DNA from: a virus
Taxonomy: Duplodnaviria; Caudoviricetes
IMG/VR virus record: IMGVR_UViG_3300038436_000160
Location: 1 to 58,954 of that record
Direction: 5' to 3' (one strand)
DNA length: 58,954 bases
Shown here in pieces: positions 13,375 to 58,931 of the stretch. Below the pieces are notes generated by a model, which searched no databases, had not been told where the DNA came from, and saw only the letters and a list, made by a program, of their open reading frames with translations. Made by a program: the position numbers and the translations under genes. Positions within the stretch are counted from its first letter, which is position 1. Each line of letters opens with the position of its first letter.

Positions 13375-13636
13375 AGTCGTTTTTGCTTTTGCGCGGGACA
13401 TCTAATTTGATGTTTATTCGGGCGTTGGCTTTAACTCCCACGAGCTTCATAATTCTTCGGATCGCTGCTATGGTTTCTCCGCCTCTACCTATCAATGCGC
13501 CGGCATCCTTGTCATCCAGTCGGACTGATAACAGAACTCCCATTTCGTCTACTTTTCTTTCGATAACAACTTTTTCCGGTTTGGCAACTATGGCTTGTAT
13601 GATTTGTTCTAGTAGTGCTACATCGCTTTCTTGCAT
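13325..13636 (-). CDS. khpA: KH-domain RNA-binding protein, KhpA family
   Basis: IVAKPEKVVIERKVDEMGVLL..DAGALIGRGGETIAAIR (GxxG loop); GGAGGTG SD before MQESD. Confidence 0.85.
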   Translation of the reverse strand: MQESDVALLEQIIQAIVAKPEKVVIERKVDEMGVLLSVRLDDKDAGALIGRGGETIAAIRRIMKLVGVKANARINIKLDVPRKSKNDYEKPSIEDQSNNPREL

Positions 13637-13649
13637 GGTTTTCACCTCC

Positions 13650-18413: not shown

Positions 18414-18491
18414 AAAAAGGGCTGCAACTTCTAAACACACGCACGAATTGGCGTATATTCAGAAGCCACAGCCCCGATTGTTTCGTTAGGC
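18414..18491 (-). promoter_or_regulatory. Leader attenuator 1 (antiterminator motif overlapping a long terminator)
   Basis: GCCUAACGAAACAAUCGGGGCU, a 24-bp G-U-rich stem, then UUUUU 15 nt before the ATG. Confidence 0.75.
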
Positions 18492-18568
18492 TTTACTTCC
18501 TAATAGCTACAGTCTAGTAAAGGGGAAAATAGTTCTCAATACAGTTTCTGTTACTTTGTGGTGATTAA

Positions 18569-18823
18569 CTAGTAAACACGCTCGCTATAAAGCCTGTTTT
18601 TAAGATCCCGCAGTTGATTGAAGTAGCTTTGAGGGGTAACCATAATCTTATTTGTGAAATACTCATCTACGGTTTTTTCCAACTCCGCAGACCTTCTGAA
18701 GACAAATGCCGCTTTTCTTGGGTTACCACGATCAATGTCTTCCAGCGGAAAAGACATATTTAGTGTTGTTGCCAATGCTAAATCACTAGTTAGGAAAAAA
18801 TTGTTTGTGACATCCTGTTTCAT
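18569..18823 (-). CDS. DUF5659-like small protein
   Basis: FLTSDLALATTL..AAFVF..YFNQLRDLKNRLY. Confidence 0.6.
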   Translation of the reverse strand: MKQDVTNNFFLTSDLALATTLNMSFPLEDIDRGNPRKAAFVFRRSAELEKTVDEYFTNKIMVTPQSYFNQLRDLKNRLYSERVY

Positions 18824-18895
18824 AGTATTTTTGGTACTCTCTGTTAATTAGTAATACGTTTATGTTAATTAATGCCCAGAAGCCGTTCAATAAAC

Positions 18896-18912
18896 TTTCT
18901 GTCACTTTCTGT
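18896..18912. repeat. 17-bp repeat TTTCTGTCACTTTCTGT, copy 2
   Basis: Identical to 375-391; 14/17 variant at 18545-18561. Confidence 0.7.
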
Positions 18913-18987
18913 AAATAAGAAAAGTAAGATTTATCTAGCAAGTAACGCTATTTTCCTGATACATTAGCGGTGTTAAGATTATTAAAT

Positions 18988-19704
18988 ATGACACAGAATA
19001 AAGCTTATTGGTCATCCATCGCACAAAATTACGACACTGTCGTCAAAGAAACAGGAGATCAGTCTCAGCAGCTTATAATCAATCCTATCGTTCAAGAATT
19101 ACTCGGTGACCTTCAAGGAAAAGTTGTTCTCGATGCTGGCTGTGGGAATGGTTATTGGACTCGCCGAATCTCCGAAACCGCTCAGAGAGTGGTTGGAGTA
19201 GATTTTACTGAAGAGCTTATTGAAAGGGCTAGATCGAGAGGAGTTCCTAAAAATGCCGAGTTCATTATTGGCAATCTAGAAAGACTACTCTTAGCAAAAA
19301 ACACGTTTGATGTGGCTTTAATGAGCATGGTGCTTCTGGATCTCGAGGATCTATCGACTCCTATCGCTGAAGTTGCGAGGGTAACCAGACCAGAGGGATG
19401 TATTATTGTTAGCACCACCCACCCATGTTTTGAAAATCCACCTTATACTCGTTCACTAAGGGATGATAATGGAAATAAAACCGGTAGAGTGATTACGAAT
19501 TATTTTGCAACAGGCTTAGTCAAAGATGAAGTTAACAGCTATCAACATTGGCATTACAAAATATCAGATATTATCAATACTTTTGCCACGAATAGGTTAT
19601 TCGTAGAAAAAATGGTTGAGCCTACCAGTAATGGAGTTATGAAAAATGGTGGACCTGATCACTTTCCTTATTTTTTAATTATAAGATTTAGAAAGATAGT
19701 GTAG
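18988..19704 (+). CDS. Class I SAM-dependent methyltransferase (cargo)
   Basis: VLDAGCGNG, GVDFTEELI, FDVA, HPCF. Confidence 0.9.
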   Translation: MTQNKAYWSSIAQNYDTVVKETGDQSQQLIINPIVQELLGDLQGKVVLDAGCGNGYWTRRISETAQRVVGVDFTEELIERARSRGVPKNAEFIIGNLERLLLAKNTFDVALMSMVLLDLEDLSTPIAEVARVTRPEGCIIVSTTHPCFENPPYTRSLRDDNGNKTGRVITNYFATGLVKDEVNSYQHWHYKISDIINTFATNRLFVEKMVEPTSNGVMKNGGPDHFPYFLIIRFRKIV

Positions 19705-19719
19705 GGATACGGTTTATTA

Positions 19720-21519
19720 TTACCTTCCGTTGAGCTTAGTAGCCAACGCTTCTTGCTCGTTATACAAGGTTTTGTCTTGATCAACCATTTTCTGCTCAGC
19801 TCCAGTGAGCCACTGATTGGCCTCCATCCTTGAAACAATTGCTGATATATTCCCAATTCTTACTGCAATGATTTCACTCATCCTATCAACATCAGTTTTG
19901 TTATCTTGATAGAAGTTGGAATTATCTTTGAGGCTGTTCCATCCTGGCTGTATCTCTCTAAGTCTTGTGAGACTAGTTTTCCATGAATCAATATCTGCTT
20001 GCTTATAGTTAGGTGGAACATATCCGGCAAAGTGCTGCACAATAACTTGAGTTGGGCACCCATTAATTTCGCCTTCAACTTCAGAAATACCTACTTCTTG
20101 ATATGTTTTATCTGTTAAAAATTTCTTGGACTCTGGAAATTGAAATTGATTGTCTATGAGTTCTCCTGCTTCGTAGTACCCTTGAGTAGGGGCTTCACCC
20201 CAAACTGTATTTGAGTAACCAGCATCTCTCATGGACTTGGACATGGTATAGCCGCTTTCGGTTGCTTCAAATGAAAAATCATCAAATTTAAGAATTATTT
20301 CACCTCTCTTACTGGCCGAAGTTTCAAGTTTCGGCTGATACTTAAGTTCTTTAGCTCCAGCTTCTTTTCGCTTCTCATTAAGCAACTGCAAATATTTGTC
20401 TTTGTCTAGTTTAATTTTTGACTTTTCATCAAAATCGTTAGCAGTATCTCGCCAGGCATTATCAAGGGTCCCTGTTTGATTTTTTAGAGGCAGTACATGG
20501 TTAATTGCACTTATTTCTATAAATCCTATTTCTCGGGAGTCACCACTTCCTTTGCGGTTATCACCCATAACAAATATTGAATTTTCAGGGACTGTAACTT
20601 TGGTGCATTCGCTAAGGAATGTTTCCCCAAAAGTTGATCTTGGTTGTGCAGTGTAGGATTCTTTCAAGGGCTCACCGTTTAAATAAACAATCCCTTCACG
20701 AAGCTCAATAGTGTCTCCCGGCATTCCTACCACTCTTTTAACCCAGCCAGAAGGATCGCCATATATATTCTTTGTCATTTCTCTGATTTTGTCGTTTTCT
20801 ATTACGACGATGTCGCCTCGACCGATTTCATAGCCGAAGTAACGTCTTCCTGCAATTACAAGCCCGTTTGGATAACGCATCATTCCAGGAGTACCAACGA
20901 TCTGTTTTGCCAGTTCTTTTGGATCCTTACCCTCACCTTTAGGAAAGGTGGGAAACATAGAACCAGTACCAGATATCGTTATAAACTCAGTGCCATAGCC
21001 AAGAGCTTGTTGAACTGTTACTGCCGCCACAGCGTAGCCGCCAATCCAGATTGGGAGCATTACGAGTGTGATCGCTGCAGCTAATGCGAATCGTCCCAAT
21101 ACTCGTTTTGGGTGCAGGGATTTAAGTAACCCTTTTATTCCAGAGTGTTTGACCCTCTTGATCAACTGCAGGGGTTTTAAGATGTGGTTGAGTAGGTAGA
21201 GAGGAAAAATTGCCAGTACAAAAAACAACCTAATGAGAAACAGCAACGGATTCTGTTTTTGTTTTGACCTCGATATTAACAGCGATGCAAGCGCAAATAT
21301 TCCAACAAGAAACGCCAAACTCCCCAATAAAATTAGCCCTAGGAGAGAAAAAGCAAATATTTCAGGGGCATTATCAAAAAGTTCCTTCCTGATCAGCAAG
21401 ACGTAGCCAAAAATGGATACAACTCCTATGACACAAGCTGCCCAAATTAGAAATGATATCTTTGTAACACTTAACAGATATTTATGCTCTGCCTGTCCTG
21501 CAGGCTTTTCTTTATTCAT
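19720..21519 (-). CDS. Multi-TM signal peptidase I (S26) fused to a CAP/SCP-like domain
   Basis: GSMFPT, VKRVVGMPGD and GDNRKGSGDSR, then LNEKRKEAGAKELKYQPKL..WGE..EVGI..VQHF. Confidence 0.85.
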   Translation of the reverse strand: MNKEKPAGQAEHKYLLSVTKISFLIWAACVIGVVSIFGYVLLIRKELFDNAPEIFAFSLLGLILLGSLAFLVGIFALASLLISRSKQKQNPLLFLIRLFFVLAIFPLYLLNHILKPLQLIKRVKHSGIKGLLKSLHPKRVLGRFALAAAITLVMLPIWIGGYAVAAVTVQQALGYGTEFITISGTGSMFPTFPKGEGKDPKELAKQIVGTPGMMRYPNGLVIAGRRYFGYEIGRGDIVVIENDKIREMTKNIYGDPSGWVKRVVGMPGDTIELREGIVYLNGEPLKESYTAQPRSTFGETFLSECTKVTVPENSIFVMGDNRKGSGDSREIGFIEISAINHVLPLKNQTGTLDNAWRDTANDFDEKSKIKLDKDKYLQLLNEKRKEAGAKELKYQPKLETSASKRGEIILKFDDFSFEATESGYTMSKSMRDAGYSNTVWGEAPTQGYYEAGELIDNQFQFPESKKFLTDKTYQEVGISEVEGEINGCPTQVIVQHFAGYVPPNYKQADIDSWKTSLTRLREIQPGWNSLKDNSNFYQDNKTDVDRMSEIIAVRIGNISAIVSRMEANQWLTGAEQKMVDQDKTLYNEQEALATKLNGR

Positions 21520-21566
21520 ACTATTAAGTAAATTATATCGAACTTGAGTTAAAATGGCATTGTCGT

Positions 21567-22070
21567 ATGATCAAACCATTTATGAATCAAAGTGAAGATA
21601 ACACATATAAGTATTTTTTTAGGACAAAACACGTAATTAACAGGGTGTCAGAGACGAATATGAAAACTCCTGATTTTGAGGGTGAAAACGTTTTAGTCGA
21701 AGTTAAACAAATTTCTCCCGATGAAGTTGAAGGTTTAAGTAATGATTCTACGTATAACGCCATCAAAAATAATCTTCGTGATGCCGCCAGAAAATTTCGG
21801 GCTTATGACTCGAGTCATTCAAAAAGACATATCGTAGTGATTTACTCTGATGAAATTGTTAGAAACGATATTTATAGTGTATGGACTGGAGAATGGTCAC
21901 CAGAACATAAAGATAGAATTTTTAAAGGTGGTATGCTCCTCTCAAGTAACCACAAACAACATATCGATGGCATAGCCTGGTTCAAGAAGACCACTGACAA
22001 AGCTCCCGCTTATGTGTGGGCAGCAATTGAGGATATAAGGCAATATTTCCCCGAAATAAGCAATGAATAA
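21567..22070 (+). CDS. PD-(D/E)XK-fold protein
   Basis: KTPDF..VLVEVKQI. Confidence 0.6.
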   Translation: MIKPFMNQSEDNTYKYFFRTKHVINRVSETNMKTPDFEGENVLVEVKQISPDEVEGLSNDSTYNAIKNNLRDAARKFRAYDSSHSKRHIVVIYSDEIVRNDIYSVWTGEWSPEHKDRIFKGGMLLSSNHKQHIDGIAWFKKTTDKAPAYVWAAIEDIRQYFPEISNE

Positions 22071-22146
22071 TTTAGTAAAAAGTTTTATAATTGAACTGGT
22101 ATGAACTGCCCAATAAGTACCGCTCAACTGACTATTTTTGATAACT

Positions 22147-25100
22147 ATGAAAATGAAGTACCAATGGAGAAGATATTGGAGTCCGCCAGAAGGCAGAATA
22201 AGCCTTGCTGATGATGGTTTCCTTGACGATCCCTCTGAGAAATTTGGCAAAATCGTTAACCCTGACCTCGTTGAATTAAATACTCCTGATGACACTGGTT
22301 GTTTGGTAATGCTTGGTGAACCAGGTATTGGCAAAAGTGTGGAGATAGAAAATCTGTTTCAGTCTACGCTGTCCAAACACAGTGCAGACCACGTGCTCAT
22401 GATTGATCTTAGGAATATCCCCACACCGGAAATTTTTCGCGATGAACTTACGGGTGATGCTCGCTATCAAAATTGGGCAACCAATGGAGAGCCGCTTTAT
22501 TTATTCTTGGATAGTTTTGATGAAGGAATGACTTCATCTTCTTTTAAGTCATTTGCTAAATATTTTTACACTTTACTTTCTCGGTACCCAGACAAACTTT
22601 CAAAACTTTATCTTCGTGTTTCGTGCCGCACAGCTCTTTGGCAATCATATTTTGAAAATGACCTCAAGCGATTGTGGAGTACCGGAGATACTTTTCGGAA
22701 ATATGAGCTGTGTCCACTCATTAAAAGCGATGTTGAGAGCGCTTTAGAAGCTCGAGGGATCGATAAAGGACAATTTTTAAAGGACTTGCGAGCTAAGGAA
22801 GTCGTGGGGCTCGCAGGGAAACCACTTACCCTAAATCTCCTAATGGATGTTTATCAACGTGATGGCCAGTTTCCTGAGATGAAAAGTCAGATTTACTCTC
22901 AAGGGTGTGACCTCTTGATTCAGGAGCAAGATCCAGCAAAAAAGAATGATCCAACTGCGAGACCCACTCTCACGCTTGCTCAAAAGATTGCAGTAGCTGA
23001 AAGGATAGCTGCTGCAACAGTCATTGGTGGTAAACCAACAGTTGATCTAGATGGGGAGCTTGGAGAAGGAGAAATAGGATTATCTCAACTTCATGGCAAA
23101 GAATATGTTGACGAGATTCCTGTAGCTGTAGGCGATCAACAAATTCTGGAGGTATTAAATACGGGACTCTTTTCTTCGAGAGGTAATGGCAAAATGGGCT
23201 GGGCCCATCAAACCTACGGAGAGTTTCTGGCTGCAAGATATATCTTTAGACACAAACTCGATTGGCAGCAGACTCAAAGCTTGCTCTTCCATGATCCACT
23301 CAAGATTGGTACTTTTCAAGTTGTACCACAGTTGTATGAGGTTAGCGCATGGATAGCTAGTCTAGATCCATCTTTTTTTGATAACGCTGTTCAGCTTGAT
23401 CCTGAATTTTTGTTGTTGAGTGATGCAAATGTCATTACGGACCTTCAAAAGCAAGGTCTTACCGGACGTTTACTGGTCAAGCTTGATAAGGGAGAATTAT
23501 TCGACCGACGGGAAATCTATAACACCACTAACTACAAAAAGTTGAATTATCCAGGTCTTGGCGAGCAATTGAAACCATATATTGCTGATAACACAAAAGG
23601 TGTTGTTGTCAGAAGAGCCGCCACAGAAATTGCGCTAGCTTGTGCAGTAATCGACTTAGAAGATACTCTTATCAAAATTGCCTTAGACGAATCTGATGAA
23701 TTATCAGTACGTGTATGGGCGATTATAGCTATTGCCAACTTCGGCTCCGACAAATCAAGGGAGAGTATTAAACCACTCATAACCTCAGGCTTCGAAAATG
23801 ATCCGGAAGACGAGCTAAAGGGAGTTGTCCTTAGGGCATTGTGGCCAAAACACATCAGTATAGATGAAGTCCTCTCTTTACTTACACCACCTAAAAAACG
23901 AAGTCTCCACGGCACATATCATGGCTTTATGGGTGAAGATCTTGCCTCATCACTTCGTTCTGAAGATGTAATCCCCGGTTTGGAATGGATAGAAAAGAAT
24001 GTTGATAAGGCTCGAGATCTCGAATACTCCCAAAGAAAGTTGGTTGACGCCATTATGCTCAAGGCATGGGAGCATGCATCTGCTCCTGGGGTACTTGAGA
24101 AGTTTTCCAGCATAGCTTACGACCGGTTGAAAGAATATGAAGAGATAGTTGGAGAAAGAGCTTTAAGCGAAGATATTGCTACCAAGTTCCAGGGAATGCT
24201 AGACGCTCAAGTTGAAGATCGTCACAACTTGATCAAAAAGTTAGTTCGCCTCACGCTAGAAAACGATACTTCTTCAGGAAGGAAGGGATATATTCTTCTC
24301 CACCATAACAACGTGAGAATCGTTACACCTCAAGATATTCCCTGGTTGGTTGATTGGTTGTTGTCAGAAAAAGACGAAGAGACGCAAAAAGTTATTTCTG
24401 AAGTAGTCATGCGAGTTCTGGATGTCCACAGCGTGTCTCAGATTGACCTTGTCTTTCATGCCCGAGAGAAAAACAAATATTTGAAGGAGGACACTCATTT
24501 TTGGTTCCAAACTATAGAGCTCGCTTCTGAATCGGCAAAAACTCAACGAGAGCAATGGGAAGAGCAACAGAGCTGGCAAACAAAGGTTGAAAAAGACGAA
24601 AAAGAAGAAATACTGAAAACACTCTCACTAGAGAGAATCATGGGTCTACTAGAAAAAGTTGAAGGGGGTGATCTCGATTCTTGGTGGCAATTACATAACA
24701 ATCTTTGTATGTATCGTCACGAGTTGGAGGAGGATGACATTCGAGAGTTGCCAGGGTGGAAAATATTGAGTGAAGATCAACAAAAGAAACTTATTGAGTA
24801 TGGGAAAGCTTATCTAGAGAAAATGGAGTCCAAGCCAGAAATGTGGCTCGGGCAAGGTAAAATCTATTATCCTGCACTCGCTGGCTATAGAGCCATTAAG
24901 GCATACTACAGAGAGGAACCACAGTATATTGAAGACCAGGGTGCGGATTTTTGGAAACGCTGGGCGCCGATCACGCTCGGGTTTCCACTTGTCTCCAATG
25001 ACCCTGAAAATGGCAAGCTAATCGCTCTTGCTTATAAGAATGCTCCTGAGAAAGTGCTTTCAACTTTAAGTGTTTTGATTGATGATGAGGCTCAAAAGTA

Positions 25101-26361
25101 TAACGGCCTGTTTATCAATGATTTGCTCGAAGATTCTCTGGATCCAAAACTGAGCCAATTTTTACTAGAGAAAGCCAAGCAAGAAGGTTTTAGTCCGAAA
25201 GCTGCCGGCGAGATTGTTAGATTTTTATTGAGTCATGGAGATCCAGCCACTAAAGAATATGTGAAATCTTTAATCTCGATTCCTCTACCCGAAGATGAGG
25301 AGAAGAGAAACGAAATACTATCAGCCGCTGCTTCCCTAATGTGGAATGCTGACCTCAATGATTGGGAGTTTCTTTGGGGCTTAATGCAGAAAGATAACGA
25401 TTTTGCTAGGGCATTGGTTATCAGAGCCAATGACAGCCCACTAAGAGGCTCGACTGTACTGCAAAGCATGAGCGAACCGTTACTTGCTGATTTATATATT
25501 TGGCTCACCAGGGAGTTTCCACCTGAGAAATATACCCGACCCGAAGGCGTTCATACGGTTACACCACAAATTTCAATTGGCGATTGGCGTGATTCTACTT
25601 TGCGAGTGCTAATGGATAAAGGTACAGCCGAGGCTTGCCGTCAGATTGAACGGGTTGCTGCTATTTTTCCTCAGCATAAGTGGCTCCAACAATACACTCT
25701 TGTGGAAACACGCAGGATTGCCTTACAAAAAACCTGGCATCCACCAGCAGTAGACCAGATATTTAAATTGGTTGAAAACCATGAATTAAGGTTGGTAAAT
25801 AGCCCTGATGAATTGATGGATATTGTTATTGGTTCACTGAAGCGGCTAGAGAGTAAACTCCAAAGAGGTGAACATCCTCAAGCTATTAATCTTTGGAATG
25901 AAAAGCGACCCAAAGATGAAAATCGACTATCTGACTATGTCAAAGTCCATCTTGAAGAGGATTTGAAAAACAAGGGCATTATTGTAAACCGGGAAGTTGA
26001 AATCAAACGTGGGAATAAAACCGACATCCACATAAGCGTGTACGGTCGAGACCACCTAGGAAGGCCAACCGGAGACCCCATGAAAGTCACTATTGAGACT
26101 AAGGGCTGCTGGCATCCAGAACTAGACACTGCTATGGAGTCTCAGCTTGTTGGGCAGTATCTTTCCACAGATGTTTGCCGTCATGGCATTTATTTGATTG
26201 GTTGGTTTGTATGCGATGCCTGGACTGATCGGAAAAATCAAAAGGTTCCGTCTATAGACATCGTTGAAGCGAAAAAACAATTTGATGAGCAAGCCCAAGA
26301 AGTATCTACAAAAACTTCTTACAGAATTGAACCTTTTGTCTTGGATGCAAGGTTAAGGTGA
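22147..26361 (+). CDS. STAND/NACHT NTPase with HEAT-like repeats and C-terminal PD-(D/E)XK nuclease (NLR/Avs-like defence)
   Basis: GEPGIGKS, LFLDSFDE, VSCR, KPLTL, WAHQTYGEFLAA; C-terminal NREVE..KTDI..IETKG. Confidence 0.8.
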   Translation: MKMKYQWRRYWSPPEGRISLADDGFLDDPSEKFGKIVNPDLVELNTPDDTGCLVMLGEPGIGKSVEIENLFQSTLSKHSADHVLMIDLRNIPTPEIFRDELTGDARYQNWATNGEPLYLFLDSFDEGMTSSSFKSFAKYFYTLLSRYPDKLSKLYLRVSCRTALWQSYFENDLKRLWSTGDTFRKYELCPLIKSDVESALEARGIDKGQFLKDLRAKEVVGLAGKPLTLNLLMDVYQRDGQFPEMKSQIYSQGCDLLIQEQDPAKKNDPTARPTLTLAQKIAVAERIAAATVIGGKPTVDLDGELGEGEIGLSQLHGKEYVDEIPVAVGDQQILEVLNTGLFSSRGNGKMGWAHQTYGEFLAARYIFRHKLDWQQTQSLLFHDPLKIGTFQVVPQLYEVSAWIASLDPSFFDNAVQLDPEFLLLSDANVITDLQKQGLTGRLLVKLDKGELFDRREIYNTTNYKKLNYPGLGEQLKPYIADNTKGVVVRRAATEIALACAVIDLEDTLIKIALDESDELSVRVWAIIAIANFGSDKSRESIKPLITSGFENDPEDELKGVVLRALWPKHISIDEVLSLLTPPKKRSLHGTYHGFMGEDLASSLRSEDVIPGLEWIEKNVDKARDLEYSQRKLVDAIMLKAWEHASAPGVLEKFSSIAYDRLKEYEEIVGERALSEDIATKFQGMLDAQVEDRHNLIKKLVRLTLENDTSSGRKGYILLHHNNVRIVTPQDIPWLVDWLLSEKDEETQKVISEVVMRVLDVHSVSQIDLVFHAREKNKYLKEDTHFWFQTIELASESAKTQREQWEEQQSWQTKVEKDEKEEILKTLSLERIMGLLEKVEGGDLDSWWQLHNNLCMYRHELEEDDIRELPGWKILSEDQQKKLIEYGKAYLEKMESKPEMWLGQGKIYYPALAGYRAIKAYYREEPQYIEDQGADFWKRWAPITLGFPLVSNDPENGKLIALAYKNAPEKVLSTLSVLIDDEAQKYNGLFINDLLEDSLDPKLSQFLLEKAKQEGFSPKAAGEIVRFLLSHGDPATKEYVKSLISIPLPEDEEKRNEILSAAASLMWNADLNDWEFLWGLMQKDNDFARALVIRANDSPLRGSTVLQSMSEPLLADLYIWLTREFPPEKYTRPEGVHTVTPQISIGDWRDSTLRVLMDKGTAEACRQIERVAAIFPQHKWLQQYTLVETRRIALQKTWHPPAVDQIFKLVENHELRLVNSPDELMDIVIGSLKRLESKLQRGEHPQAINLWNEKRPKDENRLSDYVKVHLEEDLKNKGIIVNREVEIKRGNKTDIHISVYGRDHLGRPTGDPMKVTIETKGCWHPELDTAMESQLVGQYLSTDVCRHGIYLIGWFVCDAWTDRKNQKVPSIDIVEAKKQFDEQAQEVSTKTSYRIEPFVLDARLR

Positions 26362-26364
26362 ATT

Positions 26365-26622
26365 TTATTTGAAAGAATTATAGCAGTCGTTGGTGAGTTT
26401 TGTTTCATCATCAACAAGCTTATTCCACTGCTCTGATCCGAAATCAGTTATTCCCAATTCTTTTTTGCCTATTTCCAGATAAGCAACTCCAAGTTCTGCA
26501 CAATTTTTAGGAGCATCCTTACGCCCAATTTGAAAACCGATGAATAGAGCCGTGATAGCAAGAACAGCAGTTATTAATATTGCCGTAGACATTCTTATTT
26601 TTCTTACTTCCTTTACGTTCAT
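26365..26622 (-). CDS. Small membrane-anchored protein
   Basis: Likely start MNVKEVRK behind TTGACT-16-TATAAT; N-terminal TM; two Cys. Confidence 0.6.
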   Translation of the reverse strand: MNVKEVRKIRMSTAILITAVLAITALFIGFQIGRKDAPKNCAELGVAYLEIGKKELGITDFGSEQWNKLVDDETKLTNDCYNSFK

Positions 26623-26774
26623 ATCTTTAATTATATTAATTAGTTGACACAAGTCAAATCTAGAAAGAGATGAGGAGGTAGACATAACTACAAAGTAGAC
26701 TTGATGTGCCTACCTCCTCGGTTTGCCAGCTCTTAGATGGATGTTACTTGACTATCTGGGAGAACCAGTAGCGA

Positions 26775-27164
26775 TTACTGGACCCAAACGTACAGGTATG
26801 CTTCGACATTGCCGGGACCGCCTGCACTCCATGTGTCCGTGAATCCGGTGCAGATGTAAGCATCTGACGCCGTTTCGAGTTGATACCCGATCACAGATTT
26901 ACCACTGAAGGCGCTTGCGACAGTTCCGTTTGATGCATTGAGGCGGTAGTCTTCGGGGTCTGCGCTGAAGGTCTTCACGAGTTCGAACCCGTAATCGTTC
27001 CAGTCGCAGTTTGCGTACCCCATTCCCATCGAGTCTAGCGAATACCGCCAGGCATTGGGATTGTCCGCCCATTCGACGGGTTGATCGTTGGCGAGTGCAA
27101 CACCAACGATTGTGAGCATTGCCACTGCTGTCAGCAGTAGGGCCGCAATCAGCTTACGCTTCAT
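26775..27164 (-). CDS. Secreted protein (moron)
   Basis: Signal peptide ending VALA; AAAGGAG SD; visibly GC-richer than its flanks. Confidence 0.75.
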   Translation of the reverse strand: MKRKLIAALLLTAVAMLTIVGVALANDQPVEWADNPNAWRYSLDSMGMGYANCDWNDYGFELVKTFSADPEDYRLNASNGTVASAFSGKSVIGYQLETASDAYICTGFTDTWSAGGPGNVEAYLYVWVQ

Positions 27165-27183
27165 CTAACACTCTCCTTTGAGC

Positions 27184-27233
27184 TGTTAAAGAGCTGGCAT
27201 ATTTAGAATAAACAACTATGTATGAATTGTAAA
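27184..27233 (-). promoter_or_regulatory. Sigma70 promoter plus boxA
   Basis: TTTACA-17-TATTCT (27233-27205), then GCTCTTTAACA (27194-27184). Confidence 0.65.
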
Positions 27234-27253
27234 GAATATCTTACTAATATGAA

Positions 27254-29143
27254 TTATTGCTGTATCATTTTCCCTAACCCTGGAATCTTGCTGATAAGCT
27301 CTCTAATTTTGTTTTGGTTGGCCACAGGTGGCGTACTACTCGTTTGAGCGGGCAAAGTATCGCTAGAAGGCGCCACAGGGGTCACAATCTCGTCATTTAA
27401 CGGTTCTTCCTCTTTAGCTTCTTGAGATTGAGTAATTTCGGGACCAAGGAGAATATCGACATATTGATCAAGATCTAACTCCTCCAGAATCATTTTTTGC
27501 AAGGCACGCTTGCGGATTAGCCAACGTTTTACATCGGCAGTACTGTTGGGATCCGGTTTATCTTGGGCAATAAATTTGTCGTAAAGAAGCAATATCTGGT
27601 TAAGTCGGGCTTGTTTATCCGGAGGAATGACTGGCTCAACTTCAACAATTGCATCTACCTGGATTTTCTTATCTTCAGATTTAAACTCTTTGAAGTCGAC
27701 ATTGTTGCCAACAATGCGATAGAGTTTGTCTTCACCTATAAACTCACGGTTTAGTTGAATAAGGATGTTAGCCACTATTGTCAGGGCATTCGAAATGTTT
27801 TGAGCATTCATGCTTAGTCTGAGGTTGCTTTGACCCAATAGCATTGCCACCTTACCAAGTGGTTCACCTGATGATTGTGGAAGTCCTTGTAAGTATTCAC
27901 CGAGTGCAAGTGTTCTGGAGATTTCGTCTCGAAGAAGTTTGTCTTCATTCACACCCATTAGACTTATATCAGGTGGTCGCTCGATTACCACATCATCCAT
28001 TTTTCTGAGTTCCCATACAGCTCCCGGTGAGAAAATGATGTCATTCTTGGTTATACCAGTATCTTTCCGAATCTTTACTACTGGATCCAACATCAGCACT
28101 ACGTCATCCATTCTTTGGTTACGGAGATCTGCAATTTCCATAATGGTGCTTTCAACAGGTTCGACGTGACCGGTTGCCCAAAACTCCCAAAGCAGTGACA
28201 TATCAGGGAGGTCTACAAAAATGTGTCCGTTATTGACATCAAGGTAGGGATTTTCGTCATCTCGAATAACTACTTCACCGTTCGCAATAACTATCAGTTG
28301 ATCTTCTTCATAGTCCCAGCACTCCCAGAGCTCCAATTGTTTTTCCTGGTCGTTTTTAACAGGCAAAACTTTTTGTTCTCCGGTTTCTGGTTTTTTGATG
28401 TCACCATCGATTTGAGACATCTTTTTGGTGTTGATTTCATAGCGCTCTTTCTTCCAGTCCTCAACAACTTTTGGTTCACAAAACTCTAAGTTCTTATATA
28501 TTTTGTTCTCACCCCGGTTTTCTTCTTCTTTTGTGATCTTTTCCTTTGGCTTTACAATGCGGTGAATAAGCCACGGACATCCTTCCTGCAAATCTTCAGT
28601 TTCCGGAGCAGGTAAAAAGTCCCACAGATCGCAGAGGATCATTGTCGGGTCGTCGTAAATAGTTTTTATTTTCCCGTCTGATCGTTTCCTGTTGATTATT
28701 TTCCAGGCAAGCTTAACTATTCCGTTCCCATATAAAACTGAAGATTCAATCCAGTTAGGCAACTTTCTTGCGAGCTCAATAATGTCAAAGTCATAGTTAA
28801 CCAAATCTGCCCAGGAGCCGAGGGCAGTTGATTGAATATCAGCTTTTTCTCTGGGAATGACTCTGGTCTTTCGCTTCGCAGTGGCAAGCCTTGATACAAC
28901 GGTTTTAACGATCTCAAAAGCGATCGGAGGCATTAGCCTGGTGTTGTACGCATAGTTTTGTTTGTGCTGATAGGCGCGGTAGAGGCGATACATCCGCAAC
29001 CACTTGGCTTGGTATGGATCACGGAATTCTTTTGCTCGCTTAAATCGGGCTTTCCACTTAGTCAGAAGTGCTGCGTCACGCTCTGAAGGCTGGTATCTGG
29101 CTACTTGGGTGATTTTTACTTCTTTTACTTCGGGTTTTGGCAT
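27254..29143 (-). CDS. Portal protein (P22/T7-like podoviral type)
   Basis: 629 aa; LYGNGIVKLAW, DFLPAP, ELWECW, RDDENPY, LRNQRMD. Confidence 0.85.
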   Translation of the reverse strand: MPKPEVKEVKITQVARYQPSERDAALLTKWKARFKRAKEFRDPYQAKWLRMYRLYRAYQHKQNYAYNTRLMPPIAFEIVKTVVSRLATAKRKTRVIPREKADIQSTALGSWADLVNYDFDIIELARKLPNWIESSVLYGNGIVKLAWKIINRKRSDGKIKTIYDDPTMILCDLWDFLPAPETEDLQEGCPWLIHRIVKPKEKITKEEENRGENKIYKNLEFCEPKVVEDWKKERYEINTKKMSQIDGDIKKPETGEQKVLPVKNDQEKQLELWECWDYEEDQLIVIANGEVVIRDDENPYLDVNNGHIFVDLPDMSLLWEFWATGHVEPVESTIMEIADLRNQRMDDVVLMLDPVVKIRKDTGITKNDIIFSPGAVWELRKMDDVVIERPPDISLMGVNEDKLLRDEISRTLALGEYLQGLPQSSGEPLGKVAMLLGQSNLRLSMNAQNISNALTIVANILIQLNREFIGEDKLYRIVGNNVDFKEFKSEDKKIQVDAIVEVEPVIPPDKQARLNQILLLYDKFIAQDKPDPNSTADVKRWLIRKRALQKMILEELDLDQYVDILLGPEITQSQEAKEEEPLNDEIVTPVAPSSDTLPAQTSSTPPVANQNKIRELISKIPGLGKMIQQ

Positions 29144-29158
29144 AATGATTTAGACAAC

Positions 29159-29227
29159 AAAAAAGGGGCTTGGGTTCATCTACTTTTGAAAAATAGAGAA
29201 ACCTAAGCCCCGATAGATTCGTTAGGC
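29159..29227 (-). promoter_or_regulatory. Leader attenuator 2, homologue of 18414-18491
   Basis: GCCUAACGAAUCUAUCGGGGCUU..AAGCCCC-UUUUUU directly upstream of the portal ATG. Confidence 0.75.
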
Positions 29228-29326
29228 GGTTTTATTTCTGTTCTCAGACTATAAAATTGAACCCAAAAACTCTAGGTCGTTAATGTTAGTAAGTGAAAAT
29301 GCCTGATTGAAGTTATAATGAAACTG

Positions 29327-29366: not shown

Positions 29367-29555
29367 ATGGTAAGTAAACCTATGGAAGAATTGCTAACTC
29401 TGGGCGAGGCAGCGAAAGTGCTAAAAGTCCATCCTAATACACTTAGGTTGTGGGACAAAAAAGGTGTGCTTATTGCCATCCGGATCGGTGTTAAAAAAGT
29501 AAGGCGTTACAAAAGGGAAGATATTGAAAAATTCATCAATACCAAGAATAAATAA
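29367..29555 (+). CDS. Excisionase/MerR-like HTH protein
   Basis: LLTLGEAAKVLKVHPNTLRLWD..RRY. Confidence 0.85.
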   Translation: MVSKPMEELLTLGEAAKVLKVHPNTLRLWDKKGVLIAIRIGVKKVRRYKREDIEKFINTKNK

Positions 29556-29557
29556 AT

Positions 29558-38830: not shown

Positions 38831-38832
38831 TT

Positions 38833-39588: not shown

Positions 39589-39590
39589 AA

Positions 39591-47470: not shown

Positions 47471-47692
47471 CTATAGTTCGACATCGCTTTGCTTTTTGGG
47501 TGTTTCTCCGGCACTACCACCTTCTTTAGGGTCTATTCTTTGTTGTTCTGTGATTTCCTTGCGGTAAGGCTTGCCGTTCTGTATAAACACTTCAACCTTA
47601 CCGAATTTAACCGCTCGGATGTCCTCAATGATTTTGGCTTCTGCCGGTGTAACAGCGATGGTGGTAATGGTTGGTTTATTTGTTTGGCTCAT
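47471..47692 (-). CDS. DUF2292/YezD-like small protein
   Basis: IIEDIRAVKFGKVEVFIQNGKPYRKEITEQQRI matches the FG.V...V.DG....E..E pattern; overlaps the terL end. Confidence 0.7.
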   Translation of the reverse strand: MSQTNKPTITTIAVTPAEAKIIEDIRAVKFGKVEVFIQNGKPYRKEITEQQRIDPKEGGSAGETPKKQSDVEL

Positions 47693-49250
47693 ATTTGAGT
47701 CTTTTCTTCATGGCTATCTGCCAATAAATAAGTGATAGCCAGAAATCATTTGGTCCGGTGTTGGCCCACTCACGTTTTGCCTGACCAAACTTGTCTGTGA
47801 CTGTTCTCGCATACATTGTCTGGGCATGGGTAATAAGGAGCTTGAAAGCTGGATTACTTGCTGGCACGGCAAATTTAATATCTCCACGCCTGAGTGCTGA
47901 GATAGTGTCGTCCATGATTCTGGTACGGGAGGAGAAGACTTTTACTTCATCCTCAAAAACCGCGTCTTTACTTTCTTTCTCATCAAAAAAGCGAATAACC
48001 TCAAGCATTTTGGGGTCATCTTTGAACCAGCTCAGGTAAACCCTGTAAGGAAATTCCTTGGCCAGGTCAAAGGCTTCTGCGGTATAAGGTTGACCATCGA
48101 TAACAACAACTCTCACATCAAAAAACTTAATCAAATCGGAGGTTTGCTTCCAGCGATCTTGGCCTTCATTGTCTTGGAGAATGCCGATCCAAAATATGCC
48201 TTTATTATTGCCAATCATTACGTGATTGCCTTTGCCGGTTCCCATGCCCGTATCAATGCCCATAACGTTATATTCACCTGTGGTGTCGGCTTTTGTTTCA
48301 GTTACATTGCGAATAAAGAGGCTGGCTGGAATCTTCTGGTCGGTAGCAAGATATGGCAACCCTAGCACAAAGTTGAAGAAGTAAGTGTCATCATCTGCGT
48401 CTTTTCGTTCTTTGATAAGATCTATCGCTGTTCTCCAAGGACAGTGCATTTGGCTAATCCAGTATCCGGAGATGGGCCTGCCTGGGAAGCGGGCTTCCCA
48501 GCTCCCTAACTCACCGATTTCTTTAGACGTGAGTTCTTTCTTACAGTTTTGACAGTAGTAAATTCCTCTTTCTTCATCAACATTTTTCTCCCATTCCATG
48601 TGTTGCCTATAGTCACAGTTCGGGCAGTTGAAGCGCCAGTGTTTCTGGTCGGATTGTTCAAAAAGTTTATTAATCCCGAAGTCGGGGATGGTTGGTGTTG
48701 ACAGGAAATGTTGACTTCTTACTTTTGAGTAACCCATCCGGGAAGTGTAATCCCTGACTACCTCAGGTTTCGATTTATCCAGTTCATCATGAATATTTCT
48801 GTCGGATGTAAGCATAATTGCCTCCCGACCTGTAAACGTACCCTTGAAGTGTATAAAGGCCTTACCGAATTGTTTCTGCTCTACGGAGTCAATGTTTTTA
48901 GAATCAACTCCCTCTTTTATGCAGGGGTTTGTCCTGATAATTTGATTCACTTTGCTTGGAACAAATTTGAGGACGTCATCAGTGGTTGGCAGGGTATAGA
49001 TCTGACCAATACCCCAAAATCTTGCTGCGTGCAAAACTCTCAATATCTCCATGGTACTCGCTCCGACCTGTGAAGCTTTTTGTATAACCTGAATCCGGGA
49101 AGTGTCGCGATAAATGTCGACCATAAACCTATGGTTTTCAAATTCGATAAGCTCACCGTTTTCATTTTTAATTTTGTTTCTTGAGATCCAGTAATCAACA
49201 CCGGCTTTTTCAAGATTTTTTATTATTTCCAGATTTCCGTCTTGCATCAT
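47676..49250 (-). CDS. terL: Terminase large subunit (GpA-like ATPase, Zn finger, RNase H-fold nuclease)
   Basis: QKASQVGAST, HDELD, STPT, CPNC..CQNC, FFNFVLGLPY, MGIDTG. Confidence 0.9.
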   Translation of the reverse strand: MMQDGNLEIIKNLEKAGVDYWISRNKIKNENGELIEFENHRFMVDIYRDTSRIQVIQKASQVGASTMEILRVLHAARFWGIGQIYTLPTTDDVLKFVPSKVNQIIRTNPCIKEGVDSKNIDSVEQKQFGKAFIHFKGTFTGREAIMLTSDRNIHDELDKSKPEVVRDYTSRMGYSKVRSQHFLSTPTIPDFGINKLFEQSDQKHWRFNCPNCDYRQHMEWEKNVDEERGIYYCQNCKKELTSKEIGELGSWEARFPGRPISGYWISQMHCPWRTAIDLIKERKDADDDTYFFNFVLGLPYLATDQKIPASLFIRNVTETKADTTGEYNVMGIDTGMGTGKGNHVMIGNNKGIFWIGILQDNEGQDRWKQTSDLIKFFDVRVVVIDGQPYTAEAFDLAKEFPYRVYLSWFKDDPKMLEVIRFFDEKESKDAVFEDEVKVFSSRTRIMDDTISALRRGDIKFAVPASNPAFKLLITHAQTMYARTVTDKFGQAKREWANTGPNDFWLSLIYWQIAMKKRLKYEPNK

Positions 49251-49791
49251 GTTCTTTCCTCCAAACTTGCAACGCTTTTTGAGTTGGCTCGTCAATGTCA
49301 AGATTTTGTTCGGCAGGGTTTATAACGTTAACGTCCTGTTTCCCTGTACTTAGTCCGGACTCCAAACGAATCATCTCCCAAGCCTTTTTAAAGTCATCGA
49401 CCGTCAACACTCTATTTGCAGTTATTTGAGGAAGGAGATAAGTCTTTATTCTGTGGAATAATCTGGCAACACTAATACCTCTCTCGTCAACAATTTGCTG
49501 AAATTCAAGGGCTGATATCTTCTTTCGTTCCTCAGTCCACTTTTTAGCTCTTTCCTGCCAGTGAAATTTAGCGGACCAGGAAAGAGCTGTTGTTTTGGAA
49601 ACAGGTTTTCCCAGCCTGATACCGGAGTTTTGCTGCTCCAATTCCTGACCAAGTTTTGACCAGGTTTTGACCAGGTCTCTAACATTTCTTTTTAGCATCA
49701 AACAGTAAGCTAAAAAGGCCGCAAATTGCTGCTCGGTTTCACCCGGCATACGCTCAATAATTATTTGTGCATTTGTCTGTTTTTTCTTCAT
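49210..49791 (-). CDS. Terminase small subunit (putative)
   Basis: ET..QFAAFLAY..WSAKFHWQERA motif; directly upstream of terL. Confidence 0.65.
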   Translation of the reverse strand: MKKKQTNAQIIIERMPGETEQQFAAFLAYCLMLKRNVRDLVKTWSKLGQELEQQNSGIRLGKPVSKTTALSWSAKFHWQERAKKWTEERKKISALEFQQIVDERGISVARLFHRIKTYLLPQITANRVLTVDDFKKAWEMIRLESGLSTGKQDVNVINPAEQNLDIDEPTQKALQVWRKEHDARRKSGNNKKS

Positions 49792-57264: not shown

Positions 57265-57311
57265 GATTTTTCTTACTATCCGGTACAATCAGTTTGACAG
57301 TCACTATAGCT

Positions 57312-58925: not shown

Positions 58926-58931
58926 TCCCGC
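58858..58931 (-). tRNA. tRNA-Gly (CCC)
   Basis: GCGGGAT acceptor stem, UUUGC-UUCCCAA-GCAAA anticodon arm, GGGUUCAAUUCCC T arm, UCCA end. Confidence 0.95.

What the first reader, a model, noticed from the sequence alone, without database searches (positions are those of the whole stretch)
18414..29227. Paired terminator/antiterminator leader RNAs gating the portal and head operons, with a DUF2292-like protein as candidate ligand
Seen: two leaders on the minus strand, 18414-18491 (before the first head gene) and 29159-29227 (before portal), share GCCUAACGAA-NNN-AUCGGGGCU. Each then has a long hairpin of largely different sequence and a U-run about 15 nt before the ATG. The 24-bp stem of copy 1 contains several G-U pairs that work only on the minus strand, which points to selection on RNA structure. 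The shared 5' motif folds as GCC/GGC, UAA bulge, CGA-5nt-UCG, and this uses the same GGGGC that opens the terminator stem, so the two folds compete. Established: overlapping antiterminator/terminator pairs are how BglG/LicT-type RAT switches work. Inference: the DUF2292/YezD-like protein at the end of the terminase operon (47471-47692) stabilises the small hairpin and licenses late transcription in trans. I recall similar bulged hairpins next to DUF2292 genes but have not verified that. I know of no described late-gene control of this kind in CPR phages.
Basis: partly seen in the sequence, partly recalled or inferred. Interest (0 to 1): 0.85.

Follow-up and report, generated by a model that had tools for sequence, protein, structure and literature searches.

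The report
Antiterminator switch before phage late genes
Two short leader RNAs in a prophage of ultra-small (CPR) bacteria can each fold either as a transcription stop signal or as a small competing hairpin, and a tiny phage protein of unknown function that always travels with this hairpin is the best candidate for flipping the switch that turns on virus-particle genes.

Summary
The 22-nt motif occurs exactly twice (0 expected). Each copy runs into a strong hairpin plus U-run about 15 nt before the portal ATG or the head-operon ATG. The element is conserved at these two places in relatives from viral, metagenome and Patescibacteria (CPR) genome collections.

The small 5' helix, here called P1, reads GCCU / AA bulge / CGA-loop-UCG / GGGC. 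It shares CGGGGC with the terminator's 5' arm. In 43 distinct P1 regions all six pairs are always paired, with G-C to A-U and C-G to U-A swaps. The terminator's 3' arm changes in step. The apex tolerates a 25-30 nt inserted hairpin that itself covaries, so the element works as RNA.

P1 alone is weak (-4.9 kcal/mol against -26 and -40), so a stabilising factor is needed.

A DUF2292-family gene directly after TerL was found in 34 of 37 P1-bearing records; the 3 without it also lack TerL. It was found in 0 of 8 related records without P1. In two relatives it abuts the leader. This is circumstantial: no RNA binding is shown and no known fold was recognised.

The system works like BglG/LicT-RAT attenuation but is not a member of that family. 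No Rfam family and no paper was found.

The parts
18511..18539 (-). sigma-70-like promoter of the head-operon leader (TTGAGA-17-TAGACT); its -10 element ends 19 nt before P1
   Evidence: The consensus scan lists it at 9 of 12. The same position holds an 11-of-12 promoter in relative L046. No transcription start is shown.
18471..18491 (-). P1 antiterminator helix, head copy: GCCU / AA bulge / CGA-5 nt loop-UCG / GGGC
   Evidence: Exact motif; MFE -4.9 kcal/mol in this fold; covariation across 43 regions; CM hit at 27.1 bits.
18414..18475 (-). Intrinsic-terminator-like hairpin (25 pairs, 7 of them G-U by my reading) plus U-run 18418-18414; its first 6 nt are the 3' strand of P1
18001..18399 (-). 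First gene of the head operon (132 aa, phrog_5707, function unknown). The SU10-type major capsid gene 15322-16491 lies downstream.
29246..29274 (-). Weak proximal promoter-like hexamers of the portal leader (TAGAGT-17-TAGTCT, assigned by eye). They sit at the position where relatives carry consensus-grade promoters. The scan instead lists a 9-of-12 site further upstream at 29378-29351.
   Evidence: Read; tool sites; 18-20 nt spacing to P1 in relatives.
29207..29227 (-). P1 antiterminator helix, portal copy
29159..29211 (-). Intrinsic-terminator-like hairpin plus U-run 29164-29159; it shares CGGGGC with P1
27254..29143 (-). Portal gene (629 aa; weak SU10_portal and P22_portal matches, phrog_332/156)
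47471..47692 (-). DUF2292-family small protein (73 aa), last gene of the block p91 / ParB-MTase / TerS / TerL. It is the candidate P1-binding factor; this is an inference.
   Evidence: Pfam 22.6 bits. Of the 99 rows of alignment A6 (the window protein, 5 relatives from fetched records and 93 library hits), 77 match DUF2292. Co-occurrence.
47676..49301 (-). Terminase large subunit (lambda gpA type), directly upstream of the DUF2292 gene

Best explanation
Each leader is a promoter-proximal conditional terminator.

Transcription starts at a sigma-70-type promoter about 12 nt before P1 (inferred from hexamers). The first ~21 nt of structured RNA fold into P1. P1's 3' strand, CGGGGC, is also the base of a long terminator hairpin that abuts a U-run 14-15 nt before the portal ATG or the head-operon ATG.

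Left alone, the far more stable terminator displaces P1 and transcription stops, so a lysogen makes only a short leader RNA. When a phage factor clamps the bulged P1 helix, the bottom six pairs of the terminator cannot form. The remaining hairpin then ends 4-8 nt short of the U-run, RNA polymerase reads on, and the late genes are made.

The action is local, one P1 per terminator, not processive.

The factor is most likely the 73-aa DUF2292-family protein encoded at the end of the terminase block. That arrangement would give a cascade from the packaging operon to the portal and head operons.

Shown: the two competing helices and their covariation, conservation at both sites, and co-occurrence with the DUF2292 gene. 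Inferred: transcription start, termination, read-through, and RNA binding by the protein.

My odds are about 0.75 for the RNA switch and about 0.4 for DUF2292 as its ligand. The confidence given is for the joint statement.
For: The element is not chance: 2 exact copies against 0 expected. The same motif lies before the portal and head genes in 7 other viral contigs and in many metagenome and CPR-genome loci.

P1 in 43 distinct regions:
- All 6 pairs are paired in 100% of cells.
- Pair 1 is GC in 40 and AU in 3. Pair 2 is CG in 40, UA in 2, UG in 1. Pairs 3 and 4 vary through wobble pairs.
- Slid controls pair in 29-63% of cells; 0 of 500 shuffles reach the observed score.
- The terminator's 3' arm changes in step: ACCU/GGGU/ACCCC, GUCU/GGAC/GUCCC, ACCU/AGGU/ACCUC.

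The apex of P1 varies from 7 nt to a 25-30 nt insert holding a hairpin with 4 of 5 compensatory pairs. That fits an RNA helix, not a DNA site.

The terminators also covary: 4 of 20 pairs and 4 of 25 pairs are compensatory.

Energetics:
- P1 is -4.9 kcal/mol; the terminators are -26 and -40.4.
- The equilibrium probability of P1 is 1e-6 to 1e-8.
- Forcing P1 costs 8-11 kcal/mol and leaves GCCC or CAAGCCCC unpaired before the U-run.

Promoters upstream are consensus-grade in relatives (11 of 12 in L046 and L186), at a fixed 19-22 nt from P1.

The portal leader in the window follows a divergent intergenic region, so it has no upstream gene to terminate.

The CM of P1 gives 36 hits (E up to 0.0024) in 772 kb. 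All are at portal or head leaders, and none lies in 12 related loci without P1.

DUF2292:
- Found in 34 of 37 P1-bearing records. The counts are 11 of 11 for G000-G010 (G002 only by iterated HMM), 8 of 8 loci in which TerL was in view, 3 of 3 for G021-G023, and 12 of 15 MAGs.
- The 3 MAGs without it also lack TerL.
- Found in 0 of 8 related records without P1.
- In L185 and L186 the gene ends 19-46 nt before the leader or its promoter.
- L174 and L141 keep promoter and terminator but lack the 5' strand of P1. L174's genome and L141's record both lack DUF2292. They nest inside the P1 clade with 100% support.
- On the portal tree the P1 label needs at least 3 changes.

Sister clades carry a different small protein (a 4-Cys zinc ribbon) at the same place and a different leader.

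G001 has a second promoter + P1 + terminator only 2 kb after the first. That argues for local rather than processive action.
Against: - No experiment or usable RNA data shows a start, a 3' end or read-through.
- The DUF2292 protein has no known function. Profile search of the PDB found nothing. The better one (75.5) is a helix plus beta-hairpin with no significant structural neighbour (best E 1.2).
- Its fixed place after a lambda-gpA-type TerL is also where lambda keeps the small head-completion protein gpW (recalled), so it may be a packaging or head protein whose link to P1 is only synteny within one clade.
- The records are related, so the tallies count records, not independent events.
- With P1 formed in the head leader, a 20-bp hairpin still ends only 4 nt before the U-run, so termination might be reduced rather than abolished.
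- The window's proximal portal promoter is weak (6 of 12, by eye).
- In insert-bearing leaders the MFE prefers a register shifted by one.
- A KhpA-type KH RNA-binding protein is also encoded.
Confidence: 0.42

Rival explanations
1. The RNA switch is the same, but another factor clamps P1: the phage KhpA-like KH-domain protein (13325-13645), a host RNA-binding protein, or another phage protein. The DUF2292 protein would then be a packaging or head-completion protein that merely sits beside TerL.
For: The KH protein matches PF13083 at 56.4 bits and belongs to a known RNA-binding family. It is present in G000, G001, G002 and G005 and in several MAG loci. The DUF2292 gene occupies the slot between a gpA-type TerL and portal that lambda gpW occupies (recalled). 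No RNA-binding fold was recognised for DUF2292.
Against: The KH gene was not found in G003 (90% complete) or G004. It is present in relatives without P1: L174 and L132/L152. The 91-aa protein before ParB-MTase also occurs in phages with no leader (L146, L157; read by eye). The phage sigma factor occurs in only 2 of the 6 genomes G000-G005. DUF2292 alone tracks P1, including the joint loss in L174.
Confidence: 0.25
2. The leader is a factor-independent attenuator or insulator. The terminators are leaky by design and simply set a low, fixed level of portal and head transcripts, or block read-in from inserted islands. P1 only tunes their efficiency co-transcriptionally.
For: P1 forms first during transcription and could delay terminator folding without help. 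Both leaders in the window sit just downstream of inserted opposite-strand modules (29367-40877 and 18970-26361). L174 and L141 apparently live with promoter + terminator and no P1.
Against: P1 is 8-11 kcal/mol worse than the terminator, with an equilibrium share of 1e-6 or less. The strict sequence conservation of the bulge (RA) and of the CG pairs across portals of 44-95% identity goes beyond what a passive spacer helix needs. Relatives without any inserted island (G001) carry the same leaders. Consensus promoters directly before strong terminators call for a release mechanism.
Confidence: 0.15
3. Processive antitermination of the lambda Q / N-nut / HK022 put kind. The conserved motif is a loading site (RNA or DNA) that makes RNA polymerase resistant to terminators. 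Its overlap with the terminator would be incidental.
For: The layout of regulator gene, promoter, short leader, terminator and late genes mirrors lambda Q-pR'-tR' (recalled). The candidate gene abuts the leader in L185 and L186.
Against: Covariation ties the motif's 5' strand to the terminator's 5' arm. In every relative the motif directly abuts the terminator. In G001 a second full leader stands 2 kb downstream of the first, which a processive complex would not need. No Q-family or N-family domain appeared in the 50 of 65 ORFs scanned with Pfam. A variable-length apex speaks against a DNA site.
Confidence: 0.08
4. The long hairpins are RNase III processing sites or 5'/3' stabilisers of late mRNAs rather than terminators. 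P1 is part of the processing signal.
For: 20-25 bp near-perfect stems are of the size that RNase III cuts (established knowledge; not tested here).
Against: A U-run directly follows the stem in nearly all relatives. Processing does not explain a competing helix that covaries with the stem base.
Confidence: 0.05

Closest known systems
BglG / SacY / LicT antiterminators with their RAT RNA (recalled from the literature)
   Same: A short imperfect hairpin in a leader overlaps the 5' arm of an intrinsic terminator. It is too weak alone, and a protein clamps it to allow read-through. The action is local, one site per terminator.
   Different: No CAT/PRD protein was found (50 of 65 ORFs scanned). P1 is 21 nt with a single RA bulge and a length-variable apex, and its sequence is unrelated. 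The targets are phage portal and head operons. The candidate protein is a 73-aa DUF2292 member.
Lambda Q with pR'-qut-tR' (recalled)
   Same: Late genes lie behind a promoter plus a nearby terminator, so a lysogen would make only a short leader RNA. The regulator gene lies just upstream of its site in the minimal relatives.
   Different: Q binds DNA and a paused polymerase and acts processively. Here an RNA helix competes with the terminator, and each terminator has its own copy.
Lambda N-boxB and HK022 put RNAs (recalled)
   Same: A small phage RNA hairpin near a promoter governs read-through of terminators. There are two copies per genome.
   Different: Those act processively and do not share a strand with the terminator. 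There is no sequence likeness and no Rfam match.
ANTAR regulators (AmiR, NasR, EutV) and HutP (recalled)
   Same: Protein-stabilised small hairpins exclude a terminator.
   Different: ANTAR sites are two hexaloop hairpins and the proteins carry ANTAR domains. No such domain was seen here.
Phage Mu Com-mom (recalled)
   Same: A very small phage protein binds a leader hairpin and opens an inhibitory structure before a late gene. Sister clades of this phage group carry a 4-Cys zinc ribbon at the place of the DUF2292 gene.
   Different: Com acts on translation. The zinc ribbons here do not reach the Pfam Com threshold (13.3 against 22.9 bits, 1 of 5 tested). The window has no such protein.

Membership tests
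Intrinsic (factor-independent) terminator | G+C-rich stem-loop directly followed by a U-run | tested here: met
   -40.4 and -26.0 kcal/mol, followed by U5 and U6. Kept in relatives.
Intrinsic (factor-independent) terminator | Stem maintained by compensatory change | tested here: met
   4 of 20 pairs and 4 of 25 pairs have changes on both sides.
Intrinsic (factor-independent) terminator | RNA 3' ends form at the U-run | not testable with these tools
   Only assembled contigs of public runs were available.
Terminator/antiterminator attenuator | A second helix that uses a strand of the terminator stem | tested here: met
   P1's 3' strand CGGGGC is also the first 6 nt of the terminator's 5' arm.
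Terminator/antiterminator attenuator | The alternative helix is itself under selection | tested here: met
   100% of cells paired in 43 regions, 2 pairs with changes on both sides, 2 with wobble changes. The three strands change together.
Terminator/antiterminator attenuator | Read-through responds to a signal | not testable with these tools
   Needs transcription assays or Term-seq.
BglG/SacY/LicT-RAT | RNA-binding CAT domain protein with PRD domains | tested here: not met
   No such Pfam match in the 50 of 65 window ORFs scanned. 15 ORFs were not scanned.
BglG/SacY/LicT-RAT | RAT hairpin of about 29 nt with two internal loops (recalled) | tested here: inconclusive
   P1 is 21 nt with one 2-nt bulge. 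No RAT model was on hand for a formal comparison. Rfam scans gave nothing relevant.
Lambda Q-type late antitermination | Q-family protein, and a DNA site at the promoter | tested here: not met
   No Q-family domain in 50 of 65 ORFs. The motif behaves as an RNA helix.
Pfam DUF2292 (PF10055, YezD-like) | Score at or above the curated cut-off (22 bits) | tested here: met
   Window protein 22.6 bits; G004 homologue 23.2; G003 homologue 18.3. 77 of 99 rows of A6 match, best E 5.5e-20.
Any Rfam 15 family | cmscan hit at the gathering score on the leaders | tested here: not met
   Whole window: only a tRNA. E-value mode on both leader loci: no relevant hit.
Mu Com zinc-ribbon RNA binders (for the sister-clade proteins only) | Pfam Zn_ribbon_Com at or above 22.9 bits | tested here: not met
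   Best is 13.3 bits in 1 of 5 zinc-ribbon proteins.

The most novel reading that the evidence does not exclude
DUF2292/YezD is a new family of small sequence-specific RNA-binding antiterminator proteins. In this clade of CPR phages it recognises the RA-bulged P1 helix and thereby times portal and head expression. The many DUF2292 proteins of other phages and of Bacillota would then control their own leaders in the same way. That would assign a function to a widespread domain of unknown function and describe the first late-gene switch in phages of Patescibacteria.
Probability: 0.3. Interest if true: 0.8.

Novelty: new variant of a known kind. Interest (0 to 1): 0.66.

Why it matters
Almost nothing is known about gene regulation in phages of the Candidate Phyla Radiation, and their hosts cannot be grown alone. 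Here a complete, compact and testable late-gene switch can be read from sequence: promoter, 21-nt bulged antiterminator, terminator. It is conserved with covariation across prophages of at least seven CPR lineages.

It is a new RNA motif. No Rfam family matched, and no paper was found in three full-text searches. It also gives the first concrete, falsifiable functional hypothesis for DUF2292. A profile search of a 1.84-billion-protein library found 116 cluster representatives, and the language-model atlas places the protein nearest to mostly viral clusters (a lead only).

The parts are small enough for direct in vitro tests and could serve as an orthogonal read-through switch.

Tried and rejected

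Known RNA families. Rfam at gathering score found only the tRNA. E-value mode on both leader loci found nothing relevant.

Other candidate factors:
- The phage sigma factor (46371-46874; Sigma70_r2 and r4) was considered as the universal factor, or the motif as its promoter. It was rejected because it occurs in only 2 of the 6 genomes G000-G005, and because the motif's variable apex and covariation mark it as RNA.
- The 91-aa protein (51441-51716) is in all six genomes but also in relatives without a leader (L146, L157, by eye). Rejected as a specific factor.
- The KH protein is kept as a rival.
- Mu Com likeness of the sister-clade zinc ribbons is below the Pfam threshold. No CxxC protein is among the window's small ORFs.

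DUF2292 structure. PDB profile search gave one hit at E 0.67. The first AF2 model was too poor. The second (pLDDT 75.5) has no Foldseek match at E 0.001 or better; a few AbrB/MazE-type rows appear at probability 0.12 or less. No fold is assigned. The atlas search gave hits of 0.83-0.85 only, which are leads.

DUF2292 elsewhere. The alignments were too divergent for the search for related loci. tblastn of two DUF2292 proteins against 50,697 GenBank phages found no match.

Public runs. All 24 runs listed hold only small shares of the stretch (0.23 or less) and are kept as contigs. When laid, one 188-nt contig from a metatranscriptome library covers 29073-29240. It spans P1, the terminator and the first 70 nt of portal, then runs on into 20 letters unlike the window that resemble a relative's -10 region. 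DNA carry-over cannot be excluded, and contigs show neither ends nor strand. No inference is drawn from this or from uncovered parts.

Regex caveats. My first regex required P1 complementarity. I repeated the parse without that condition. Two leaders (L075, L077) were mis-anchored on an upstream partial repeat and were re-anchored by hand for A3. Two spurious rows (L048, L148) were dropped. L185 was added by hand. Regex hits L159:18504, L179:1167 and L180:21705 were not confirmed by the CM and were not followed up.

Tree caveat. The portal tree is the quick version because the careful search did not finish. Long branches make the placement of L185 and L186 unsure.

Literature. Three searches were run, and only the result listings were seen: 'DUF2292/YezD' (the one relevant listing is a B. 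subtilis genome note), 'antiterminat + prophage + Patescibacteria' (0 papers), and antiterminator/terminator/late genes/portal/leader RNA/phage (6 papers, none on such a leader). No paper was read. Supplements are closed and none bears on a claim here.

Complex prediction was not used, because no protein-protein claim is made.

Full report
WHAT IS THERE. The window is an IMG/VR virus record of 58,954 bases, rated 67% complete. It has a serine recombinase next to a tRNA-Gly at one end, an HTH / Peptidase_M78 pair suggestive of a lysogeny module (by recall), and a packaging block on the minus strand. That block runs 91-aa protein, ParB-methylase, TerS, TerL, then a 73-aa DUF2292 protein. Further on lie an SU10-type portal and an SU10-type major capsid gene. 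There is no further match at up to three mismatches and none in 100 shuffles. Each copy continues into a strong hairpin and a U-run (-40.4 and -26.0 kcal/mol, z -7.4 and -5.6). The ATG of the first head-operon gene and of portal follows 14 and 15 nt later. This includes the strand asymmetry of copy 1: 7 G-U pairs by my reading, and -40.4 against -21.8 kcal/mol on the other strand. Copy 2 shows no asymmetry.

CONSERVATION. An exact-pattern scan of viral contigs found the motif in seven other contigs. It is always before a portal gene or before the homologue of the head-operon gene, and four of those contigs carry both copies. Protein-guided searches with portal then brought in 16 + 39 viral loci, 79 metagenome loci and 32 loci from species-representative genomes. 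The genome hits are prophages in Patescibacteria MAGs: Woese-, Davies-, Gottesman-, Shapiro-, Roizman- and Nealsonbacteria and Saccharibacteria. A few are machine-labelled as Gammaproteobacteria. 'CPR phage' is therefore right. A covariance model of the small helix found 36 matches (E up to 0.0024) in 772 kb of related sequence. All are at portal or head leaders, there are only two in the window, and there are none in 12 related loci that lack the element. No Rfam family matches.

ANATOMY OF THE LEADER. In relatives a sigma-70-type promoter lies 19-22 nt upstream of the helix, at consensus quality (11 of 12 in L046 and L186; by eye in L185, L024, L174). In the window the head copy has TTGAGA-17-TAGACT (9 of 12). 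The portal copy has only weak hexamers at the homologous place, plus a 9-of-12 site further upstream. The start site is inferred, not shown. The small helix, P1, folds as GCCU/GGGC, a two-base AA bulge, CGA/UCG and a five-base loop. Its 3' strand CGGGGC is also the first six bases of the terminator's 5' arm, so the two folds exclude each other.

IS P1 REAL? I aligned 43 distinct P1 regions from portals of 44-95% identity to the window's and counted pairs. All six pairs are paired in every sequence. Pair 1 is G-C in 40 and A-U in 3. Pair 2 is C-G in 40, U-A in 2 and U-G in 1. Pairs 3 and 4 vary through wobble pairs, and the two C-G/G-C pairs next to the bulge never vary. Partners slid by one to three columns pair in only 29-63% of cells, and no shuffle of 500 reaches the observed covariation score. 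Wherever the shared strand changes, the terminator's 3' arm changes too. All three strands therefore move together, as expected if the middle strand must pair with either partner. The A-U swaps occur in three different backgrounds: a head-type leader of G005, the short-apex group around L024/L114, and the insert-bearing L135. The U-A swap occurs in L089 and in the distant L185. The apex of P1 is 7-8 nt in some phages. In others it holds a 25-30 nt insert with its own hairpin, in which 4 of 5 pairs show compensatory changes. Conserved halves held at variable distance by a structured insert are the signature of an RNA helix and are hard to reconcile with a DNA binding site or a promoter. The terminators themselves covary as well. 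One caveat: in insert-bearing leaders the MFE prefers a register shifted by one. The pair-1 swaps in L114 and L135 favour the register used here.

WHY A FACTOR IS NEEDED. P1 alone is worth -4.9 kcal/mol. In the full leader its equilibrium probability is 1e-6 (head) and 1e-8 (portal). Forcing it costs 8 and 11 kcal/mol and leaves GCCC or CAAGCCCC unpaired between the remaining hairpin and the U-run. By established knowledge of intrinsic terminators, which need the stem to abut the U-tract, this should weaken or abolish termination. For the head leader the 4-nt gap makes 'weaken' the safer word. The bulge (always purine-A) and the adjacent C-G pairs are invariant across all 43 regions. That is more than helix stability requires and is typical of a protein-recognition site.

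WHICH FACTOR?
- I compared the window's 65 crude ORFs with five whole related phage records and used iterated HMMs.
- The phage sigma factor is in only 2 of 6 genomes.
- The KhpA-type KH protein is in 4 of 6, and also in relatives without P1 (L174, L132).
- The 91-aa protein is in all six, but also in phages with no leader at all.
- The DUF2292-family protein is in all six, always directly after TerL.
- Extending the test, it was found in 5 of 5 further viral records with P1 and in 8 of 8 MAG loci where TerL lay within the flank.
- It was also found in 3 of 3 further viral records and in 12 of 15 further P1-bearing MAGs.
- In the three MAGs without it, TerL was not found either, so the packaging block is missing from those assemblies.
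- Among relatives without P1 it was found in 0 of 8 records or genomes. Two of these are 92-94% complete.
- These are counts of records, not of independent events.

On the quick portal tree the P1 label needs at least three changes. L174 and L141 keep the promoter and a terminator that starts with the same CGGGGCUA, but have lost the 5' strand of P1. L174's whole genome and L141's record both lack DUF2292. They nest, with 100% support, beside a P1-bearing phage inside the P1 clade. In their relative G003 the gene and the leader are 5.5 kb apart, so this looks like two separate losses. In L185 and L186 the DUF2292 gene ends right at the leader's promoter. That is the usual place for a phage regulator relative to its site. 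In sister clades (portals 47-54% identical) the same slot after TerL holds a small 4-Cys zinc-ribbon protein, and the leader is different: small UACG-loop hairpins overlapping a terminator. In still more distant relatives TerL runs straight into portal, with neither a small gene nor a leader.

Family membership is sound. The window protein scores 22.6 bits against a cut-off of 22. A profile of nine phage proteins found 116 representatives in a 1.84-billion-protein library. Of the 99 rows of the resulting alignment (93 of those hits, the window protein and 5 relatives), 77 match DUF2292, with best E 5.5e-20.

What the protein does is unknown. There is no PDB relative. The model is a helix followed by a beta-hairpin (pLDDT 75.5). 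It has no significant structural neighbour. Some library hits carry the domain twice in one chain, which hints at a dimer.

MECHANISM AND RIVALS. The best-supported reading is a local, protein-dependent antiterminator/terminator switch before each late operon, with the DUF2292 protein as the most likely clamp. I put about 0.75 on the switch and about 0.4 on the ligand. The second leader standing only 2 kb after the first in G001, with its own promoter and its own P1, argues against a processive Q-, N- or put-like mode. The rivals are:
- the same switch with another factor (the KH protein or a host protein), with DUF2292 as a gpW-like head or packaging protein;
- a factor-independent leaky attenuator or insulator;
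- processive antitermination;
- RNase III processing.

COMPARISON WITH KNOWN SYSTEMS. The system works like BglG/SacY/LicT-RAT attenuation and shares its layout with lambda Q-pR'-tR'. It is a member of neither. No CAT/PRD or Q-family domain was found in the 50 of 65 ORFs scanned, and P1 resembles no Rfam family. Three full-text searches found nothing on DUF2292 function or on antitermination in Patescibacteria phages (listings only). I rate it a new variant of a known kind: a new RNA motif, a new candidate protein family and a new biological setting.

LIMITS. Nothing here shows transcription starts, termination, read-through or RNA binding. Public runs gave only contigs with small shares. The neighbourhoods of DUF2292 genes outside this clade could not be examined.

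Noticed in passing
window 29367-40877 (+): An opposite-strand island sits between the 189-aa gene 40886-41455 and the portal leader. It holds an HTH_17/MerR-like 62-aa protein, an HKD(PLD)+Snf2 helicase (1094 aa), a type IIG RM-like methyltransferase (1063 aa), a Ppl-like ATPase (948 aa), a Cas4-like PD-(D/E)XK nuclease and a trypsin-like protease. It looks like a defence island. In relative G005 the 189-aa gene's homologue lies directly upstream of the leader, with no island.
   Followed up: partly
window 18970-26361: A second inserted block lies between the portal module and the head leader. It holds a 1407-aa protein with a weak HEAT-repeat match (+), a 599-aa protein with a signal-peptidase S26 domain (-), and a 244-aa protein matching PADLOC mad2 (+). 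These ORFs have no matching counterpart in the five compared genomes, apart from one 68-aa stretch at 32% identity (18970-19704 against G002).
   Followed up: partly
window 46371-46874 (-): Phage-encoded sigma factor (Sigma70 r2 + r4, ECF-like, phrog_1740). It is present in only some relatives (G005, L171, L183, L179). Its target promoters are unknown.
   Followed up: partly
window 13325-13645 (-): KhpA/KhpB-type KH-domain RNA-binding protein (PF13083, 56.4 bits) encoded among the structural genes. In G002 and L132 its homologue sits upstream of the packaging block instead.
   Followed up: partly
L126, L143/L149, L144, L148, L156 (upstream of portal): Sister clades have TerL, then a 56-96-aa 4-Cys zinc-ribbon protein, then a leader with small UACG-loop hairpins overlapping a terminator, then portal. 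This may be an analogous switch with a different protein. Likeness to Mu Com is below the Pfam threshold.
   Followed up: partly
L174 about 9690-9990; L141 upstream of portal: A consensus promoter and a long terminator starting CGGGGCUA lie before portal, but there is no 5' strand of P1 and no DUF2292 gene. How these phages pass the terminator is unexplained.
   Followed up: partly
L153 about 2770-2900: After TerL comes a 68-aa protein with a DUF2292-like hairpin by eye (not detected by HMM). It is followed by a terminator whose apex, not its base, holds a GCCUAA...UCGGG element. This does not fit the competing-fold model.
   Followed up: no
window 47126-47308 (-) and 29367-29555 (+); L046 5561-5917: In G001 the homologues of the 60-aa ORF and of the HTH_17 protein form one 118-aa protein. 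In the window they are 18 kb apart on opposite strands. This suggests a rearrangement that accompanied the island.
   Followed up: no
window 58858-58931 (-) and 57294-58925 (+): A tRNA-Gly(CCC) overlaps the 3' end of a large serine recombinase ORF at the window's edge. It is probably the attachment site of the prophage.
   Followed up: no
window 43749-44726 (-); 11710-13401 (-): A YceG/MltG-like protein (218 bits) lies between TerL and portal and is conserved in G001-G004. An Amidase_2 domain sits at the end of a 563-aa tail-region protein. Both are likely cell-wall enzymes of the phage.
   Followed up: no
L075 and L077 about 2902-2925: A partial tandem repeat of the UAACGAA part of the motif lies just upstream of P1 in these relatives.
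   Followed up: no
insert-bearing leaders, e.g. L022, L088-L094 (about 90 nt between first terminator and portal ATG): A second hairpin plus U-run follows the first terminator before the portal start in many distant relatives. There may therefore be two stops in series.
   Followed up: no
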